NCBI RefSeq assembly: GCF_050320075.1
Contig: NZ_CP190018.1
Origin: Escherichia coli
Lineage (GTDB): Bacteria; Pseudomonadota; Gammaproteobacteria; Enterobacterales; Enterobacteriaceae
Direction: 5' to 3' (one strand)
DNA length: 64,000 bases
Shown here: in pieces, positions 8,848-49,395 of the stretch
Position numbering within the stretch: position 1 is the stretch's first letter
Layout of the letters: every line of letters begins with the position of its first letter
Made by a program: the position numbers and the translations under genes
Notes under the pieces: generated by a model
What the model saw: the letters and a program-made list of their open reading frames with translations, nothing else
What the model was told of the DNA's origin: nothing
The model's database searches: none

Positions 8848-8924
8848 TGGCGTGGCATGCAGGATTCGAACCTGCGACCAACCGCTTAGAAGGCGGTTGC
8901 TCTGTCCAACTGAGCTAATGCCAC
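8848..8924 (-). tRNA. tRNA-Arg (anticodon UCU, reads AGA), phage-borne
   Basis: Hand-folded cloverleaf: 7-bp acceptor stem GTGGCAT/ATGCCAC, D-stem GCTC/GAGC, anticodon stem ACCGC/GCGGT with loop CUUCUAA, T-arm GCAGG-TTCGAAT-CCTGC, encoded 3' CCA. Confidence 0.9.
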
Positions 8925-27664: not shown

Positions 27665-27932
27665 AGTGATCACCTTTGTAGTTAGGTTAATCACCACTAC
27701 CGACGCCAATCGGTTGGTGGTGAACTGTGCAGGGTTGGCGTAACCGGCTACAAAGGACCCGGCGCACCTTTCGGTGCCCCCACACAGCCCACCATAGAAT
27801 AGGTGCGCTTTACACATAAAAAAAACCGCTTATGCGGCATATGTGCCTCTGTAGTAACTCGGGACGCCAATCCCGGCACTGGATTTTGCCAGTGCCCGAT
27901 TACTATGGCACAAGAGGAGTGCGTTGTAAATT

Positions 27933-28431: not shown

Positions 28432-31275
28432 ATGACGGTCTCAACCGAAGTTGACCACAACGAATACACAGGTAACGGCGTTACGACATCGTTTCCGTAT
28501 ACTTTTCGAATTTTCAGAAAATCAGACCTGGTTGTTCAGGTGTCTGACCTGAACGGGAACGTAACAGAATTGGTTCTGGATACCGGTTATACGGTAACTG
28601 GGGCGGGCACTTATAGTGGCGGTTCAGTGGTTCTGCCGTCTCCGCTTGCTGCTGGCTGGCGAATTACGATAGATCGTGTGCTTGATGTAGTGCAGGAGAC
28701 AGACCTCCGCAATCAGGGAAAGTTTTTCCCCGAAGTGCATGAAGATGCCTTTGACTACCTGACGATGCTGATCCAGCAATGTTTTGGGTGGTTCAGACGT
28801 GCATTGATGAAGCCCTCTCTGCTTGCAAAATATTACGATGCAAAGCAAAACAGAATTTCTAACCTTGCAGATCCATCACTTGAGCAGGACGCTGTAAATA
28901 ATCGCTCAATGCGTAATTATGTCGATGCTGCAATCGCCGGAGTTGTTGGTGGTTTTGGTTGGTTTATTCAGTATGGTTCTGGGGCAGTATATCGCACCTT
29001 CCAGGACAAGATGCGAGATGAAATAAATGTTCATGATTATGGTGCTATAGGTGATGGAAATTATCACCCGCTTTCTGAACGTTATTCATCGTTGGCTGCT
29101 GCGCAGCAACAATATCCATTTGCTACTTCCCTTGGTCAGTCTATTGACTGGGCTGCAATACAGGCAGCGATCAATGCCTCACAAGGCAGAAAGGTAAAAT
29201 TATTAGCAAAAACATACATTTCTACTGATGGATTCACTGGCGTTGATGGTCTTTGTTTAATTGGTGAAGGTGCTACCCCTTTTTACCTTAACTTTCAGGA
29301 CATTCCATACACCAACAATGGTGGTACTGACATTCTTTTCTATGGTACAGGCCAAAAGAACAGAAGCATTTATGGTATTTCGGATATGCAGCCATCCGGT
29401 GGTGTGAGGACAGATCCTGATTTAGGCGTGACTCATGCATTAACCAATATGACGAATGGAGACGCCAGCACTTCGGCGGCTGCAACCCCTCGAGCAGTAA
29501 GCGCTGGCTTATACCTTGAGCATTGCAAAGGCTGGCAAATTGAGGGAATCCGATTTGCTCCATATTTTAACGGGGTCGAATCATATACAGACCAGACTAA
29601 CTTAGGGCTGGCTGATGAATGGGATATCGGAATTCTCATCAATAGTTCTTATGATGGTGTAATGCGCGATGTTCGCGCGGTTGGGCACTGGCGAGTTGCT
29701 GGCCTGGCTGTGTTTGCAGGCGAAAATCCTTTCAACACAGGCGCGTCATCTTCATGTGAACGAAACAGATTTTTTTCCTGTCAGTTTAATGGAAAGTCTG
29801 GCGTTCTTATTCGCGGCGGGGATGCCTACCGGTGTACAGCAGTAACAGCTGACACTGTCGAAATTCCATGGCACGATTCAAACCCGTTCCGGCATACCGG
29901 TGGGGTATTTCTTGGGGCCTTTGGTGGCGCAACCTCTGCAAGCTATACCTATACCAGCGCAACGGTTACCGGTGATAAGCTGACGCTCCACGGAGTAAGC
30001 CCTAACCCTTTATCGAATGGTATGACAACATCTTCAGGGGTGTATACCGGTAGAAGTTATGGGTTCCAGGGTACGCAATTCTTTGGTTGTTACTTTGGCG
30101 GCCTTGAGCATCAGACTAACCGAGTGGCTACAGACCCGGCGCTTACCTCACCATTCCCTACGTCGTCAAAACCTGTCGAAATTTCAGGTGTTCCGGCAGG
30201 AAATATCAGGTTCTATGGTTGTACGCACATGACCCGGGAAGACTGTGTGTGGATGATCCATAACGCCTCAAATATCTACGACTTCGGAGGCTATTTTGAG
30301 GCCAAGCGAGCGATCACTGCTACTGGCGGCGGCTCGCGCATGGTAGCCATCGGTAATTGGCCTGATTACACCCCGACTGCAGAATCACCATATCCGTTTG
30401 GTACGGTCAGTAACATAAATATGTTCGGTTCGCAGGCTCTTAATTTCGTTGATATGTACCCTGTAGTTGCCCGTTCTACAGGTGTAACGCGCTTTACCTC
30501 CGGGATGTGGGATTGTAAGACCCTCTATAGCTCCGAGGCATTTCAGGATCTTGCTGACACCAACAACTATGTAATAAAGGGTTTACGAAACGAAAGCATA
30601 AGGTTCGAGGACGGAGCCGGCGGCCATCTTATGACCATGCAGAATATTGGCAATCTCCTGCTTGGTAAGCGCGCCAGATTTAACACCTCAACAGAGGATC
30701 GTTATCAGTTCTATCGACTCGATGGAACAACCATTTTCTTATCCCTCGATGGCACGATGTCCACGCCAGTAATGACTCTGGATGGAAACTTTGTCCCTGC
30801 AGTTGCCAATACAAGGTTGGTCGGAACTGCGGCCAAGCCCTTCTCGGGAGGTAATACCCAGACAGCTTATAACATCACTTCTGACCGGAACTACAAAACT
30901 GACTTTGGTGAAATTCCTGACGCCGTTCTGGATGCATGGGAATTGGTGCAGTATTCACAATATAAACTCAGGGATGCAGTTGCGTTGAAGGGGGAAGGCG
31001 CCAGATTACATGTCGGTGTTGTTGCACAGCAGGTGAAAGAGGCATTTGAATCAGTAGGGGTCGATCCTTTTGCATATGGCGTACTGTGCTACGACGAATG
31101 GTCTGGTCAGGAAGAAGTTATTGAGGACGGTGTCATTACGCAGCAAAAAGTGGAAGCAGGGAAGCGTTACAGTGTGCGCTACGAAGAGGCATATGCAATA
31201 GAGTCCGCCTTGCTTCGGAGAACTCATACCAGATTGGAGCAGCGCTTATCTTCTCTTGAAGAAAAATCAAAATAG
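28432..31275 (+). CDS. Tailspike/tail fibre protein with C-terminal intramolecular chaperone (peptidase S74-like) domain
   Basis: 947 aa; GGAG RBS; N-terminal virion-binding-like region; C-terminal region containing SDRNYK and GVVAQQVKEAFESVG resembles autocleaving chaperone domains. Confidence 0.7.
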   Translation: MTVSTEVDHNEYTGNGVTTSFPYTFRIFRKSDLVVQVSDLNGNVTELVLDTGYTVTGAGTYSGGSVVLPSPLAAGWRITIDRVLDVVQETDLRNQGKFFPEVHEDAFDYLTMLIQQCFGWFRRALMKPSLLAKYYDAKQNRISNLADPSLEQDAVNNRSMRNYVDAAIAGVVGGFGWFIQYGSGAVYRTFQDKMRDEINVHDYGAIGDGNYHPLSERYSSLAAAQQQYPFATSLGQSIDWAAIQAAINASQGRKVKLLAKTYISTDGFTGVDGLCLIGEGATPFYLNFQDIPYTNNGGTDILFYGTGQKNRSIYGISDMQPSGGVRTDPDLGVTHALTNMTNGDASTSAAATPRAVSAGLYLEHCKGWQIEGIRFAPYFNGVESYTDQTNLGLADEWDIGILINSSYDGVMRDVRAVGHWRVAGLAVFAGENPFNTGASSSCERNRFFSCQFNGKSGVLIRGGDAYRCTAVTADTVEIPWHDSNPFRHTGGVFLGAFGGATSASYTYTSATVTGDKLTLHGVSPNPLSNGMTTSSGVYTGRSYGFQGTQFFGCYFGGLEHQTNRVATDPALTSPFPTSSKPVEISGVPAGNIRFYGCTHMTREDCVWMIHNASNIYDFGGYFEAKRAITATGGGSRMVAIGNWPDYTPTAESPYPFGTVSNINMFGSQALNFVDMYPVVARSTGVTRFTSGMWDCKTLYSSEAFQDLADTNNYVIKGLRNESIRFEDGAGGHLMTMQNIGNLLLGKRARFNTSTEDRYQFYRLDGTTIFLSLDGTMSTPVMTLDGNFVPAVANTRLVGTAAKPFSGGNTQTAYNITSDRNYKTDFGEIPDAVLDAWELVQYSQYKLRDAVALKGEGARLHVGVVAQQVKEAFESVGVDPFAYGVLCYDEWSGQEEVIEDGVITQQKVEAGKRYSVRYEEAYAIESALLRRTHTRLEQRLSSLEEKSK

Positions 31276-41374: not shown

Positions 41375-42012
41375 TTACTCGTCGGCAGCGTAGCCCTGCG
41401 GCGGCAGACGTTGACCATCCAGCCACGCGGCGTTTTCGTGCATTTTCAGACGACCATCGGCAAACCAGCTAATCACCAGTGGATAAATAGCGTGTTCCTG
41501 GGTTTGCACGCGGGCGGTGATGTCATCCTCCGTATCACCAGCAAATACCGGGACTTTCGCCTGTAAAATAACCGGGCCACCGTCCAGTTCATCGGTGACG
41601 AAATGCACCGATGTACCGTGCTCTTCATCGCCATTTTCCAGCGCCTGACGATGGGTGTGTAATCCGGGATATTTCGGCAGCAGAGAAGGGTGAATGTTCA
41701 GCAAACGCCCGGCATAGTGGGAGACAATCGCCGGGCTGAGAATGCGCATAAAACCAGCCAGTACGACCACATCGGGTGCGTACATGTCGATTTCATGAAT
41801 CAACTCCCGGTCATAGGCTTCACGACTGTCAAACGCGCTGGCGATGAGCGTATGCGTTGCAATACCCGCCTGGCGGGCGCGTTCAAGGCCGAACGCGTCG
41901 GCCTTATTGCTGAAAACTGCCCGTACGGTGCCTTTAATTTTATTGGTTTTGCAGGCGTCAATAATTGCCTGCAAATTACTTCCGTTGCCGGAAATAAGCA
42001 CCACAATATTCA

Positions 42013-42013
<1 letters not shown>
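41375..42013 (-). CDS. purN: Phosphoribosylglycinamide formyltransferase
   Basis: 212 aa starting MNIVVLISGNGSNLQAII; overlaps purM stop. Confidence 0.9.
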
Positions 42014-43068
<1,055 letters not shown>

Positions 43069-43113
43069 TTACTTGCGGTAGAAAAATAAAATTCGGCGCA
43101 ATTCTAACAGGGA

Positions 43114-43129
43114 AAGCAAACGTTTGCGA
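43114..43129. promoter_or_regulatory. PurR operator (pur box) in the purM / upp divergent region
   Basis: AAGCAAACGTTTGCGA read directly; matches the PurR box palindrome. Confidence 0.7.
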
Positions 43130-43374
43130 GACTGCTTTACACAACCTTTTTGCACGTCTTTTCCCCAGGCGCGCGGCGAAAGAATACTTGTACCAGGGCA
43201 AAGGATCGTTTTCGGATGGAATAATCTTCTTCTATAACCATTTGAATATAAAATAACTTTATCTCAAACCGTTATCATTTTGACTAAAGTCAACGAAAAT
43301 AATATTGCCGCCTTGAAGAAAGGAGGTATAATCCGTCGATTTTTTTTGTGGCTGCCCCTCAAAGGAGAAAGAGT

Positions 43375-44001
43375 ATGAAGATCGTGGAAGTCAAACACCC
43401 ACTCGTCAAACACAAGCTGGGACTGATGCGTGAGCAAGATATCAGCACCAAGCGCTTTCGCGAACTCGCTTCCGAAGTGGGTAGCCTGCTGACTTACGAA
43501 GCGACCGCCGACCTCGAAACGGAAAAAGTAACTATCGAAGGCTGGAACGGCCCGGTAGAAATCGACCAGATCAAAGGTAAGAAAATTACCGTTGTGCCAA
43601 TTCTGCGTGCGGGTCTGGGGATGATGGACGGTGTGCTGGAAAACGTTCCGAGCGCGCGCATCAGCGTCGTCGGTATGTACCGTAATGAAGAAACGCTGGA
43701 GCCGGTACCGTACTTCCAGAAACTGGTTTCTAACATCGATGAGCGTATGGCGCTGATCGTTGACCCAATGCTGGCAACCGGTGGTTCCGTTATCGCGACC
43801 ATCGACCTGCTGAAAAAAGCGGGCTGCAGCAGCATCAAAGTTCTGGTGCTGGTAGCTGCGCCAGAAGGTATCGCAGCGCTGGAAAAAGCGCACCCGGACG
43901 TCGAACTGTATACTGCATCAATTGACCAGGGACTGAACGAGCACGGATACATTATTCCGGGCCTCGGCGATGCCGGTGACAAAATCTTTGGTACGAAATA
44001 A
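43375..44001 (+). CDS. upp: Uracil phosphoribosyltransferase
   Basis: 208 aa from [20 protein letters not shown]. Confidence 0.9.
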
Positions 44002-44086: not shown

Positions 44087-45376
44087 ATGACGCGCCGTGC
44101 TATCGGGGTGAGTGAAAGACCGCCACTTTTACAGACAATCCCGCTTAGTTTGCAACATTTGTTCGCCATGTTTGGTGCAACCGTCCTGGTGCCCGTCTTA
44201 TTTCATATTAACCCGGCGACTGTACTGTTATTTAACGGTATAGGAACACTGCTGTATCTCTTCATCTGTAAAGGGAAAATTCCGGCTTATCTTGGTTCCA
44301 GCTTTGCCTTTATTTCACCGGTATTGTTACTGTTGCCGTTGGGGTATGAAGTCGCGCTGGGCGGCTTTATTATGTGCGGCGTGCTGTTCTGCCTGGTTTC
44401 TTTTATCGTGAAGAAAGCGGGGACCGGCTGGCTGGACGTGCTGTTTCCACCTGCGGCAATGGGCGCAATCGTTGCCGTCATCGGTCTGGAGCTGGCGGGC
44501 GTAGCTGCCGGTATGGCAGGTTTACTCCCGGCTGAAGGGCAAACTCCAGACTCCAAAACCATCATCATCTCCATTACCACCCTGGCGGTTACGGTTTTAG
44601 GTTCCGTGCTGTTTCGTGGTTTCCTGGCAATTATCCCGATTTTAATTGGCGTGCTGGTGGGCTACGCGCTCTCTTTCGCAATGGGAATTGTCGATACCAC
44701 GCCGATTATTAATGCTCACTGGTTTGCGCTGCCAACTCTCTATACGCCGCGCTTCGAGTGGTTTGCCATTCTGACTATTCTGCCAGCGGCGTTAGTGGTT
44801 ATTGCCGAACACGTAGGGCACCTGGTGGTAACGGCTAATATCGTCAAAAAAGATCTGCTGCGCGATCCAGGTCTGCACCGTTCGATGTTTGCTAACGGCT
44901 TGTCGACCGTGATCTCCGGCTTCTTTGGCTCCACGCCAAATACCACCTACGGGGAAAACATTGGCGTGATGGCGATCACCCGTGTTTACAGTACCTGGGT
45001 TATCGGCGGGGCGGCGATTTTCGCTATCCTGCTTTCCTGCGTCGGTAAACTGGCTGCTGCTATCCAGATGATCCCATTGCCGGTGATGGGCGGCGTTTCG
45101 CTGCTGCTTTATGGTGTCATCGGTGCTTCCGGTATTCGTGTTTTGATCGAATCGAAAGTGGATTACAACAAAGCACAGAACCTGATCCTGACTTCCGTGA
45201 TTTTGATCATCGGTGTCAGTGGCGCGAAGGTAAACATCGGCGCGGCGGAGCTGAAAGGTATGGCGCTGGCGACCATCGTCGGTATCGGCTTAAGTTTGAT
45301 CTTCAAACTGATTAGTGTGCTGCGCCCTGAAGAAGTGGTGCTGGACGCAGAAGACGCGGATATAACAGACAAATAA
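44087..45376 (+). CDS. uraA: Uracil permease
   Basis: 429 aa from [28 protein letters not shown]; multi-TM. Confidence 0.9.
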
Positions 45377-45470: not shown

Positions 45471-46172
45471 CTGAACACACCGGCACAGCTCTCTTTGCCA
45501 CTTTATCTTCCTGACGACGAAACCTTTGCAAGTTTCTGGCCGGGGGATAACTCCTCTTTACTGGCCGCGCTGCAAAACGTGCTGCGTCAGGAACATAGCG
45601 GTTACATCTATCTCTGGGCACGCGAAGGCGCGGGGCGCAGCCATCTGCTGCACGCGGCTTGCGCGGAATTGTCGCAGCGTGGCGATGCGGTGGGCTATGT
45701 CCCGCTGGATAAACGCACCTGGTTTGTTCCGGAAGTGCTCGACGGTATGGAGCATTTGTCGCTGGTCTGTATCGACAACATTGAGTGTATTGCAGGCGAT
45801 GAGTTGTGGGAGATGGCGATTTTCGATCTCTACAATCGAATTCTGGAATCGGGCAAAACACGGTTGTTAATCACCGGCGATCGTCCACCGCGGCAGTTGA
45901 ATCTGGGATTACCGGATCTCGCGTCGCGTCTCGACTGGGGGCAGATCTACAAATTGCAGCCACTTTCTGATGAAGATAAGTTGCAGGCGCTACAGTTACG
46001 CGCGCGTTTGCGTGGTTTTGAACTGCCGGAAGATGTGGGGCGTTTCTTGTTGAAGCGGCTCGACAGAGAGATGCGCACGTTATTTATGACGTTGGATCAG
46101 TTGGATCGTGCGTCGATTACCGCGCAACGTAAGCTGACCATTCCGTTTGTGAAAGAAATTCTGAAACTGTAG
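45471..46172 (+). CDS. hda: DnaA-inactivating protein Hda (CTG start at 45471 assumed; track ORF begins 45426)
   Basis: AAA+ DnaA-like sequence; conserved uraA-hda context; start per K-12 reannotation, from memory. Confidence 0.75.
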
Positions 46173-48333: not shown

Positions 48334-49395
48334 ATGCTCGAAATGTTGATGCAATGGTATCGCCGCCGTTTTAGCGACCCGGAAGCGATTGCCTTGCTGG
48401 TTATTTTAGTTGCCGGATTTGGCATTATCTTTTTCTTTAGTGGCCTGCTTGCTCCGTTGCTGGTGGCTATTGTGCTGGCCTATTTGCTGGAATGGCCAAC
48501 CGTGCGCCTGCAATCTATTGGCTGCTCCCGCCGCTGGGCGACGTCGATTGTATTGGTGGTTTTCGTCGGTATATTGCTACTGATGGCGTTCGTGGTATTG
48601 CCTATCGCCTGGCAGCAGGGCATCTACTTAATTCGCGATATGCCGGGGATGCTCAATAAGCTTTCTGACTTTGCCGCCACGTTGCCGCGCCGCTATCCGG
48701 CGTTGATGGATGCGGGCATTATTGATGCAATGGCCGAAAATATGCGCAGTCGGATGCTGACCATGGGCGATTCGGTGGTGAAAATTTCCCTCGCCTCGCT
48801 GGTCGGTTTGCTGACCATTGCCGTCTATCTGGTGCTGGTACCATTGATGGTCTTCTTCCTGCTAAAAGACAAAGAGCAGATGCTGAACGCCGTTCGCCGG
48901 GTGCTGCCACGTAACCGTGGACTGGCAGGACAGGTGTGGAAGGAGATGAATCAACAAATCACCAACTATATCCGCGGCAAAGTGCTGGAGATGATCGTGG
49001 TGGGGATCGCCACCTGGCTGGGATTCTTACTCTTCGGGCTGAACTATTCGCTGCTGCTGGCGGTGCTGGTCGGCTTCTCGGTACTTATTCCGTACATTGG
49101 CGCATTTGTGGTGACCATTCCGGTGGTTGGCGTGGCGCTATTCCAGTTTGGTGCTGGCACGGAATTCTGGAGCTGCTTCGCGGTGTATCTGATCATTCAG
49201 GCGCTGGACGGCAACCTGTTAGTACCTGTGTTGTTCTCCGAAGCGGTTAACCTGCATCCGCTGGTCATTATTTTATCGGTGGTGATCTTCGGTGGTTTGT
49301 GGGGATTCTGGGGCGTATTCTTCGCCATTCCGTTGGCGACGCTGATCAAAGCCGTGATTCATGCCTGGCCCGATGGGCAAATCGCGCAAGAATAA
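48334..49395 (+). CDS. perM: Inner-membrane protein PerM (YfgO), AI-2E-family-like
   Basis: 353 aa multi-TM protein; conserved context. Confidence 0.8.
   Translation: MLEMLMQWYRRRFSDPEAIALLVILVAGFGIIFFFSGLLAPLLVAIVLAYLLEWPTVRLQSIGCSRRWATSIVLVVFVGILLLMAFVVLPIAWQQGIYLIRDMPGMLNKLSDFAATLPRRYPALMDAGIIDAMAENMRSRMLTMGDSVVKISLASLVGLLTIAVYLVLVPLMVFFLLKDKEQMLNAVRRVLPRNRGLAGQVWKEMNQQITNYIRGKVLEMIVVGIATWLGFLLFGLNYSLLLAVLVGFSVLIPYIGAFVVTIPVVGVALFQFGAGTEFWSCFAVYLIIQALDGNLLVPVLFSEAVNLHPLVIILSVVIFGGLWGFWGVFFAIPLATLIKAVIHAWPDGQIAQE

What the first reader, a model, noticed from the sequence alone, without database searches (positions are those of the whole stretch)
43114..43129. PurR box in the purMN / upp-uraA divergent region
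AAGCAAACGTTTGCGA matches the PurR operator palindrome, consistent with known purine-repressor control of purMN. This is expected host regulation, included for completeness.
Basis: established knowledge. Interest (0 to 1): 0.1.

Follow-up and report, generated by a model that had tools for sequence, protein, structure and literature searches.

The report
Known PurR operator of purMN
This 16-base palindrome is the well-known binding site through which the E. coli purine repressor PurR shuts off the purine-synthesis genes purM and purN; it is identical to the experimentally verified site in strain K-12 and is ordinary host regulation.

Summary
Window 43114-43129 reads AAGCAAACGTTTGCGA, which is TCGCAAACGTTTGCTT on the purM strand.

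- **Location:** it lies in the 324-bp gap between purM-purN (minus strand) and upp-uraA (plus strand).
- **Match to K-12:** the box and about 140 bp around it are identical in K-12 MG1655. That exact 16-mer is the PurR motif reported by ChIP-chip for purM-purN. Deleting it from a high-copy clone weakens a PurR-titration phenotype.
- **Chance:** one site within 2 mismatches of the consensus is found in the window, against 0.02 expected.
- **Conservation:** in 80 purM loci from other species, 65 carry a PurR box within 300 bp upstream, against 22 of 1,343 control segments. In 42 Enterobacterales sequences (41 species plus the window) the box is 94% conserved and the rest of the intergenic region about 25%.
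- **Geometry:** the box always sits exactly 7 nt upstream of an invariant extended -10 (TGnTAGAAT). It therefore covers the -35 and spacer region.
- **Target gene:** the box stays with purM where upp is not the neighbour, so it serves purMN and not upp-uraA.

Most likely mechanism: PurR bound to hypoxanthine or guanine occludes the purMN promoter. A higher-scoring PurR-like site inside uraA proved to be a by-product of coding sequence.

The parts
43114..43129 (-). PurR operator (PUR box) of the purMN promoter. TCGCAAACGTTTGCTT on the purM strand; palindromic core GCAAACGTTTGC.
   Evidence: Sequence read. Within 2 mismatches of the consensus, 0.02 expected. Leave-one-out matrix score 17.4 bits. 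Identical to K-12 and to the ChIP-chip motif. 94% conserved in 42 Enterobacterales sequences.
43101..43109 (-). Extended -10 element of the purMN promoter: TG (43109-43108), one base, then TAGAAT (43106-43101). It starts 7 nt after the box.
   Evidence: Read. The hexamer is 100% conserved and TG is conserved in 41 of 41 Enterobacterales, always with a 7-nt gap from the box. Assigning it as the -10 is inference from conservation and consensus. The simple promoter scan did not call it because no good -35 exists.
43124..43129 (-). Weak -35-like hexamer TCGCAA (3 of 6 to TTGACA), 17 bp upstream of the -10. It lies entirely inside the PurR box.
   Evidence: Inference from spacing in the sequence. 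Consistent with the statement that PurR sites generally lie between the -35 and -10 elements (PMC3159470).
43092..43100 (-). GC-rich discriminator TGCGCC and the predicted transcription start (about 43094-43093).
   Evidence: Inferred as 7-8 nt after the -10. [quoted passage not shown] The start site was not measured here.
43059..43066 (-). Conserved ribosome-binding block CGTGGGGA, 8 nt upstream of the GTG start codon of purM.
   Evidence: 80-100% conserved in the Enterobacterales footprint. The Shine-Dalgarno role is inferred.
42013..43050 (-). purM (phosphoribosylformylglycinamidine cyclo-ligase), first gene of the repressed operon. GTG start at 43050.
   Evidence: Annotation of identical genomes. 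344 of 345 residues identical to K-12 PurM.
41375..42013 (-). purN (phosphoribosylglycinamide formyltransferase), second gene of the operon. Its start overlaps the purM stop.
   Evidence: Annotation.

Best explanation
The 16-bp palindrome is the operator of the purMN operon for the LacI-family purine repressor PurR. When purines are plentiful, a PurR dimer loaded with hypoxanthine or guanine binds the box. The box ends 7 nt before an extended -10 element (TGnTAGAAT) and covers the weak -35 hexamer and most of the spacer, about -35 to -20 from the predicted start. Bound PurR therefore keeps RNA polymerase off the promoter and lowers synthesis of PurM and PurN.

Shown here: the sequence, its identity to the K-12 site, its statistical and phylogenetic conservation, and its fixed geometry relative to the -10.

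Taken from the literature on the identical K-12 sequence: PurR occupancy in vivo, its increase with adenine, and the corepressors.

Inferred: the exact transcription start and steric occlusion as the mode of repression.
For: 1. The site is present exactly as described.

2. It is the only site in the window within 2 mismatches of the consensus, with 0.02 expected. It scores 17.4 bits on a matrix that excludes it.

3. It is identical to K-12 MG1655 across the box and the whole core promoter.

4. The K-12 ChIP-chip peak for purM-purN carries the motif TCGCAAACGTTTGCTT. Its log2 enrichment is 2.08 with adenine and 0.98 without (PMC3159470).

5. Deleting AAACGTTTGCTT from a high-copy clone of this intergenic region reduces the phenotype attributed to PurR titration (PMC3266220).

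6. The 60-bp core is 100% identical in 5,308 of 5,424 E. coli genomes. purR itself is present in 5,424 of 5,426.

7. Across 80 species, 65 have a box of at least 12 bits within 300 bp upstream of purM, against 22 of 1,343 control segments.

8. In the Enterobacterales footprint, identity is 0.94 for the box, 1.00 for the -10 and 0.25 for the remaining intergenic DNA.

9. The box-to--10 gap is 7 nt in 41 of 41 Enterobacterales.

10. The box is retained upstream of purM in lineages where upp is not adjacent: 4 of 4 Enterobacterales and 10 of 12 Pasteurellales.

11. Reviews describe PurR blocking RNA polymerase at purMN, with hypoxanthine and guanine as corepressors (PMC10912719; PMC3159470).
Against: Nothing found contradicts it. 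There are four limits.

- No binding or expression experiment exists for this particular strain.
- The transcription start was not measured here, and the primary operator paper (He et al. 1990) could not be read.
- Matrix score alone is not significant across a whole 64-kb window (44 of 300 random windows reach it).
- The window does not contain purR, so the repressor's presence in this strain rests on its near-universality in E. coli.
Confidence: 0.96

Rival explanations
1. The palindrome is a chance match with no regulatory role.
For: By matrix score alone, 15% of random 64-kb windows contain an equal or better site. An even better-scoring site inside uraA turned out to be non-functional-looking.
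Against: It lies in the 324-bp promoter region of a purine gene. It is identical to a ChIP-bound K-12 site. It is 94% conserved where flanking intergenic DNA is 25% conserved. It is present upstream of purM in 65 of 80 species against 22 of 1,343 controls.
Confidence: 0.01
2. The box mainly controls the divergent upp-uraA operon, or both operons, rather than purMN alone.
For: It sits in a shared divergent intergenic region. PurR is known to regulate some pyrimidine genes such as carAB, pyrD and codBA.
Against: - The box is about 210 bp upstream of the upp promoter (TATAAT 43327-43332).
- It sits a fixed 7 nt from the purM -10.
- It is kept with purM in 4 of 4 Enterobacterales and 10 of 12 Pasteurellales loci that lack a upp neighbour.
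- upp is not mentioned at all in the PurR regulon paper, where the peak is assigned to purM-purN.
Confidence: 0.03
3. The site is used by a different LacI/GalR-family repressor with a similar palindrome (GalR, GalS, CytR or RbsR), instead of or in addition to PurR.
For: Family members recognise related 16-bp palindromes with a central CG. GalR overlaps PurR operators at the purR gene itself (PMC5110547).
Against: GalR ChIP-chip found 15 regions, and none is purMN. The box matches the PurR-specific half-site GCAAAC rather than the GalR type GTG-AA-C. PurR occupancy here is at the top of the ChIP scale (2.08).
Confidence: 0.03

Closest known systems
E. coli K-12 purMN operator (PUR box) of the PurR regulon. 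Credited in the papers read to He et al. 1990 and Meng et al. 1990; mapped in vivo by Cho et al. 2011 (PMC3159470).
   Same: It is the same element. The 16-mer TCGCAAACGTTTGCTT, the -10, the leader and the start codon are identical base for base, in the same gene context.
   Different: Nothing in the element itself differs. The host strain is not K-12: PurM differs at one residue (R at the position where K-12 has H). A prophage lies about 10 kb away, between yfgI and guaA.
Other promoter-overlapping PurR operators of the pur regulon, such as purF, purT, purL, purHD, purC and purEK.
   Same: Each is a 16-bp palindrome with a central CG, located between -35 and -10, and represses initiation with hypoxanthine or guanine as corepressor.
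   Different: The purMN box has T at position 1 and T at position 15 where most sites have A and G. Its matrix score (17.4 bits) is in the lower-middle of the known range, compared with 25.3 for purT.
Intragenic 'roadblock' PurR operators of purB and purR.
   Same: Same repressor and same motif.
   Different: Those sites lie inside the transcribed region and block elongation. The purMN box is upstream of the predicted start. The PurR-like site inside uraA (44463-44478) resembles this class superficially but is not conserved.

Membership tests
PurR (LacI/GalR-family purine repressor) operator of the enterobacterial pur regulon | 16-bp imperfect palindrome matching ACGCAAACGTTTGCGT, with a central CG step. 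| tested here: met
   14 of 16 matches, with a perfect 12-bp palindromic core. One site in the window against 0.02 expected. 17.4 bits on a leave-one-out matrix of 27 ChIP-supported sites.
PurR (LacI/GalR-family purine repressor) operator of the enterobacterial pur regulon | Sequence identity with an operator shown experimentally to be occupied by PurR. | tested here: met
   Identical to K-12 MG1655. That K-12 sequence is the motif of the purM-purN ChIP-chip peak, and its deletion weakens PurR titration.
PurR (LacI/GalR-family purine repressor) operator of the enterobacterial pur regulon | Position overlapping the promoter of a purine or nucleotide-metabolism gene, typically between -35 and -10. 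| tested here: met
   The box ends 7 nt before an invariant extended -10, 63 nt upstream of the purM start codon. The -10 assignment and the start site are inferred, not measured.
PurR (LacI/GalR-family purine repressor) operator of the enterobacterial pur regulon | Site conserved upstream of the orthologous gene in related species (phylogenetic footprint). | tested here: met
   65 of 80 species against 22 of 1,343 control segments. Box identity 0.94 against 0.25 for flanking intergenic DNA. By taxonomic order: present in Enterobacterales, Pasteurellales and Vibrionales and in one of two Aeromonadales; absent from Alteromonadales-like and Orbales loci.
PurR (LacI/GalR-family purine repressor) operator of the enterobacterial pur regulon | Cognate repressor gene purR present in the same genome. 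| tested here: inconclusive
   purR is not in the window. It is present in 5,424 of 5,426 complete E. coli genomes, so it is almost certainly present in this strain, but that was not checked directly.
PurR (LacI/GalR-family purine repressor) operator of the enterobacterial pur regulon | Corepressor-dependent (hypoxanthine or guanine) binding by PurR, and PurR-dependent repression of the downstream genes. | not testable with these tools
   Literature only, for the identical K-12 site. Occupancy rises from 0.98 to 2.08 (log2) with adenine. purMN is listed among the IMP-pathway units repressed by PurR-hypoxanthine. Corepressors are reviewed in PMC10912719.

The most novel reading that the evidence does not exclude
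The operator's distance from the -10 element may be constrained by helical phase rather than by simple overlap. It is exactly 7 nt in 41 of 41 Enterobacterales and in most Pasteurellales. In 9 of 12 Vibrionales it is 18 nt, a shift of 11 bp or one helical turn. If real, PurR would have to sit on one particular face of the DNA relative to RNA polymerase at purM. That would hint at a more specific repressor-polymerase geometry than plain occlusion.
Probability: 0.12. Interest if true: 0.2.

Novelty: already known. Interest (0 to 1): 0.05.

Why it matters
It matters little beyond correct annotation. This is a textbook operator of the E. coli purine regulon, unchanged in this strain. Confirming it shows that this part of the window, unlike the prophage about 10 kb to its left, is ordinary conserved host chromosome with intact purine feedback control. 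The cross-species footprint, with a fixed 7-nt box-to--10 spacing and an invariant extended -10, illustrates how tightly the purMN promoter architecture is conserved.

Tried and rejected
- **Primary operator paper:** I tried to read He et al. 1990 by PubMed id and by PMC id. It is not held, so it is cited only through papers that describe it.
- **Expression data:** the supplementary tables of Cho et al. 2011 are not held.
- **guaBA operator:** I searched for it as a second known site. It is absent because a prophage separates yfgI from guaA in this strain and guaBA falls outside the window.
- **Site inside uraA:** the best matrix hit in the window is inside uraA (44463-44478, 18.1 bits, also in K-12). 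I considered a purB-like roadblock operator and rejected it. The encoded peptide GAIVAV is invariant, but synonymous positions drift, and only 5 of 32 species keep a site of at least 12 bits. In addition, the K-12 ChIP peak does not extend to it.
- **Matrix score alone:** it is not window-wide significant, so I did not rest the case on it.
- **Promoter scan:** the simple sigma-70 scan found only the upp promoter and not purM's. I attribute this to purM's weak -35 and used conservation instead.
- **An error corrected:** my first upp translation was off by one base and was corrected.
- **GalR cross-binding:** considered and not supported.

Full report
**Observation.** Window 43114-43129 reads AAGCAAACGTTTGCGA on the plus strand. 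On the minus strand, which is the purM strand, it reads TCGCAAACGTTTGCTT. The inner 12 bp, GCAAACGTTTGC, are a perfect palindrome. The site lies in the 324-bp gap between purM (42013-43050, minus, GTG start at 43050) with purN (41375-42013, minus) and upp (43375-44001, plus) with uraA (44087-45376, plus). These coordinates come from the annotation of genomes identical over this stretch. The mechanical ORF list starts purM 15 nt further upstream, at an earlier GTG. The annotated start at 43050 matches K-12.

**Chance.** Against the ideal palindrome ACGCAAACGTTTGCGT the site has 2 mismatches, both in outer positions. It is the only such site in the window, with 0.02 expected. I built a weight matrix from the 27 other PurR motifs of the K-12 ChIP-chip study, leaving purMN out. 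The site scores 17.4 bits, within the 12-25 bit range of known sites and second in the window. However, 44 of 300 random 64-kb windows reach that score somewhere. Score alone is therefore not decisive. Restricted to the purM-upp intergenic region, the expectation is about 8e-4 (my arithmetic). The stronger evidence is comparative.

The region is E. coli chromosome; 5,424 of 5,426 complete genomes match it. Aligned with MG1655, the box, the promoter, the leader and the start of purM are identical. The only differences lie further upstream, toward upp. The refuting condition, 'site absent in K-12', is not met.

**Literature on the identical sequence.**
- Cho et al. 2011 (PMC3159470) list a PurR ChIP-chip region for purM-purN with the motif TCGCAAACGTTTGCTT. 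Its log2 enrichment is 2.08 with adenine and 0.98 without, and purMN is among the previously characterised targets.
- The same paper states that PurR sites generally lie between -35 and -10 and act on initiation.
- Liu et al. [quoted passage not shown] They show that deleting AAACGTTTGCTT from a high-copy clone of the upp-purM intergenic region reduces a phenotype attributed to PurR titration.
- A 2024 review uses purMN as its E. coli example of PurR blocking RNA polymerase, with hypoxanthine and guanine as corepressors (PMC10912719).
- The primary 1990 operator paper is not held.

**Conservation within E. coli.** The 60-bp core (43092-43151) is 100% identical in 5,308 of 5,424 genomes. purR is present in 5,424 of 5,426.

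**Conservation across species.** One scan of species-representative genomes with the PurM protein returned 80 loci. They span Enterobacterales, Pasteurellales, Vibrionales, Aeromonadales, Alteromonadales-like taxa and Orbales.
- The 300 bp upstream of purM contain a PurR box of at least 12 bits in 65 of 80 loci, against 22 of 1,343 size-matched control segments from the same loci.
- In an alignment of 42 Enterobacterales upstream regions (41 species plus the window), identity to the window is 0.94 over the box, 1.00 over TAGAAT, 0.25 over the remaining upstream intergenic DNA and 0.56 over the leader.
- The box core is present in 41 of 41 Enterobacterales, 11 of 12 Pasteurellales, 12 of 12 Vibrionales and 1 of 2 Aeromonadales. 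It is present in 0 of 11 Alteromonadales-like and 0 of 2 Orbales loci.

**Anatomy and mechanism.** On the purM strand the sequence is TCGCAAACGTTTGCTT-tccc-TG-t-TAGAAT-tgcgcc-G/A.
- The hexamer TAGAAT (43106-43101) is preceded by TGn, which makes it an extended -10. It is invariant, and the gap from the box to the hexamer is exactly 7 nt in all 41 Enterobacterales and in most Pasteurellales.
- Seventeen bp upstream of the hexamer is TCGCAA, a poor -35 that lies inside the box.
- A start 7-8 nt after the -10 (about 43094-43093) puts the box at roughly -35 to -20 with its centre near -28. This agrees with the '28 nucleotides' of Liu et al..
- I therefore infer that PurR with its corepressor occludes the -35 and spacer region and prevents RNA polymerase from binding.
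- The geometry is shown here. The transcription start and the occlusion mechanism are inferred and literature-based.

**Which operon is controlled?** The box is about 210 bp from the upp promoter (TTGCCG-16-TATAAT, ending at 43332). upp lies divergently upstream of purM in 54 of 80 loci. Where it does not, the box is still present upstream of purM in 4 of 4 Enterobacterales and 10 of 12 Pasteurellales. upp is not mentioned in the PurR regulon paper. The operator belongs to purMN.

**Other regulators.** GalR ChIP-chip found 15 regions, none at purMN, and the GalR half-site differs. Use of this site by another family member is not supported.

**Side observations.**
- The best matrix hit in the window lies inside uraA (44463-44478, ACGGCAACGATTGCGC, 18.1 bits) and is also present in K-12. 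It encodes the invariant peptide GAIVAV. Its synonymous positions vary freely, and only 5 of 32 species keep a site of at least 12 bits. I read it as a coding by-product.
- The ChIP-listed yfgO/yfgC motif CCGGAAGCGATTGCCT is present at 48379-48394.
- The FNR box of Liu et al. is at 43280-43293.
- The part of the window up to about 33.3 kb is a podovirus-like prophage between yfgI and guaA. It is 100% identical to E. coli YZLc1-3 and carries C4 antisense RNA, isrK and a tRNA-Arg. This is why the guaBA operator is not in the window.

**Verdict.** This is the already known purMN operator of PurR, unchanged from K-12. Interest is very low. The only mildly new point is that the box-to--10 spacing is fixed at 7 nt in Enterobacterales and shifted by 11 bp in most Vibrionales.

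Noticed in passing
window 44463-44478 (minus strand ACGGCAACGATTGCGC), inside uraA: This is the highest-scoring PurR-like site in the window (18.1 bits). It is one base different from the ChIP-bound yieG operator and is also present in K-12. It encodes the invariant peptide GAIVAV, but only 5 of 32 species keep a site of at least 12 bits, and the K-12 ChIP peak does not reach it. It looks like a coding by-product, not a purB-style roadblock operator.
   Followed up: yes
window 48379-48394 (+), between bepA (yfgC) and yfgO/perM, 45 nt inside the annotated yfgO ORF: CCGGAAGCGATTGCCT is an exact match to the PurR motif that Cho et al. list for the yfgO/yfgC ChIP-chip peak.
   Followed up: partly
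window 43280-43293: TTGACTAAAGTCAA is the FNR box (TTGAT-N4-ATCAA type) that Liu et al. describe in the upp-purM intergenic region. It is poorly conserved across Enterobacterales in the footprint.
   Followed up: partly
window 43327-43348 (+): The upp promoter -10 (TATAAT, 43327-43332) is followed by GATTTTTTTTG (43338-43348). From my own knowledge, not checked here, this resembles the initially transcribed T-run used for UTP-sensitive start-site switching and reiterative transcription at upp-uraA.
   Followed up: no
window 43094-43100 (minus strand TGCGCCG): A GC-rich discriminator between the purM -10 and the predicted start is largely conserved in Enterobacterales and even in Vibrionales (tagaatAGCGCC). 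This could indicate stringent (ppGpp/DksA) sensitivity of the purMN promoter.
   Followed up: no
loci L046-L077 (Vibrionales), about 75 nt upstream of purM: In 9 of 12 Vibrionales the PurR box sits 18 nt from the same TGnTAGAAT -10, compared with 7 nt in Enterobacterales. That is a shift of 11 bp, about one helical turn.
   Followed up: partly
window 1 to about 33300; junction between 33165 and 33382: A podovirus-like prophage is inserted between yfgI and guaA. It encodes a terminase, portal, major capsid protein, T7 gp14-family core protein, SLT transglycosylase, a 947-aa tail fibre, holins and a GH19 lysin. It is 100% identical to E. coli YZLc1-3 (chicken, China), and only 44 of 5,426 genomes cover at least 80% of it. 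H1, a genome identical at purM, lacks it and has guaA-guaB there instead.
   Followed up: partly
window 27713-27799 (-), 27819-27895 (-), 8848-8924 (-): Inside the prophage there are a C4 antisense RNA (79.5 bits) and an isrK Hfq-binding RNA (74.2 bits) next to a BRO-N/antirepressor-like region, and a tRNA-Arg(tct).
   Followed up: no
window 45998-46013 (in hda) and 28483-28498 (start of the prophage tail-fibre gene): Two weaker PurR-like matches, at 13.7 and 14.8 bits, lie inside coding sequence. They are at the level expected by chance for a 64-kb window.
   Followed up: no
window 43059-43066 (minus strand CGTGGGGA) and GTG at 43050: A strongly conserved ribosome-binding block and a conserved GTG start codon for purM are seen across Enterobacterales. 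PurM differs from K-12 at a single residue (R where K-12 has H, in NVERHEMY).
   Followed up: no
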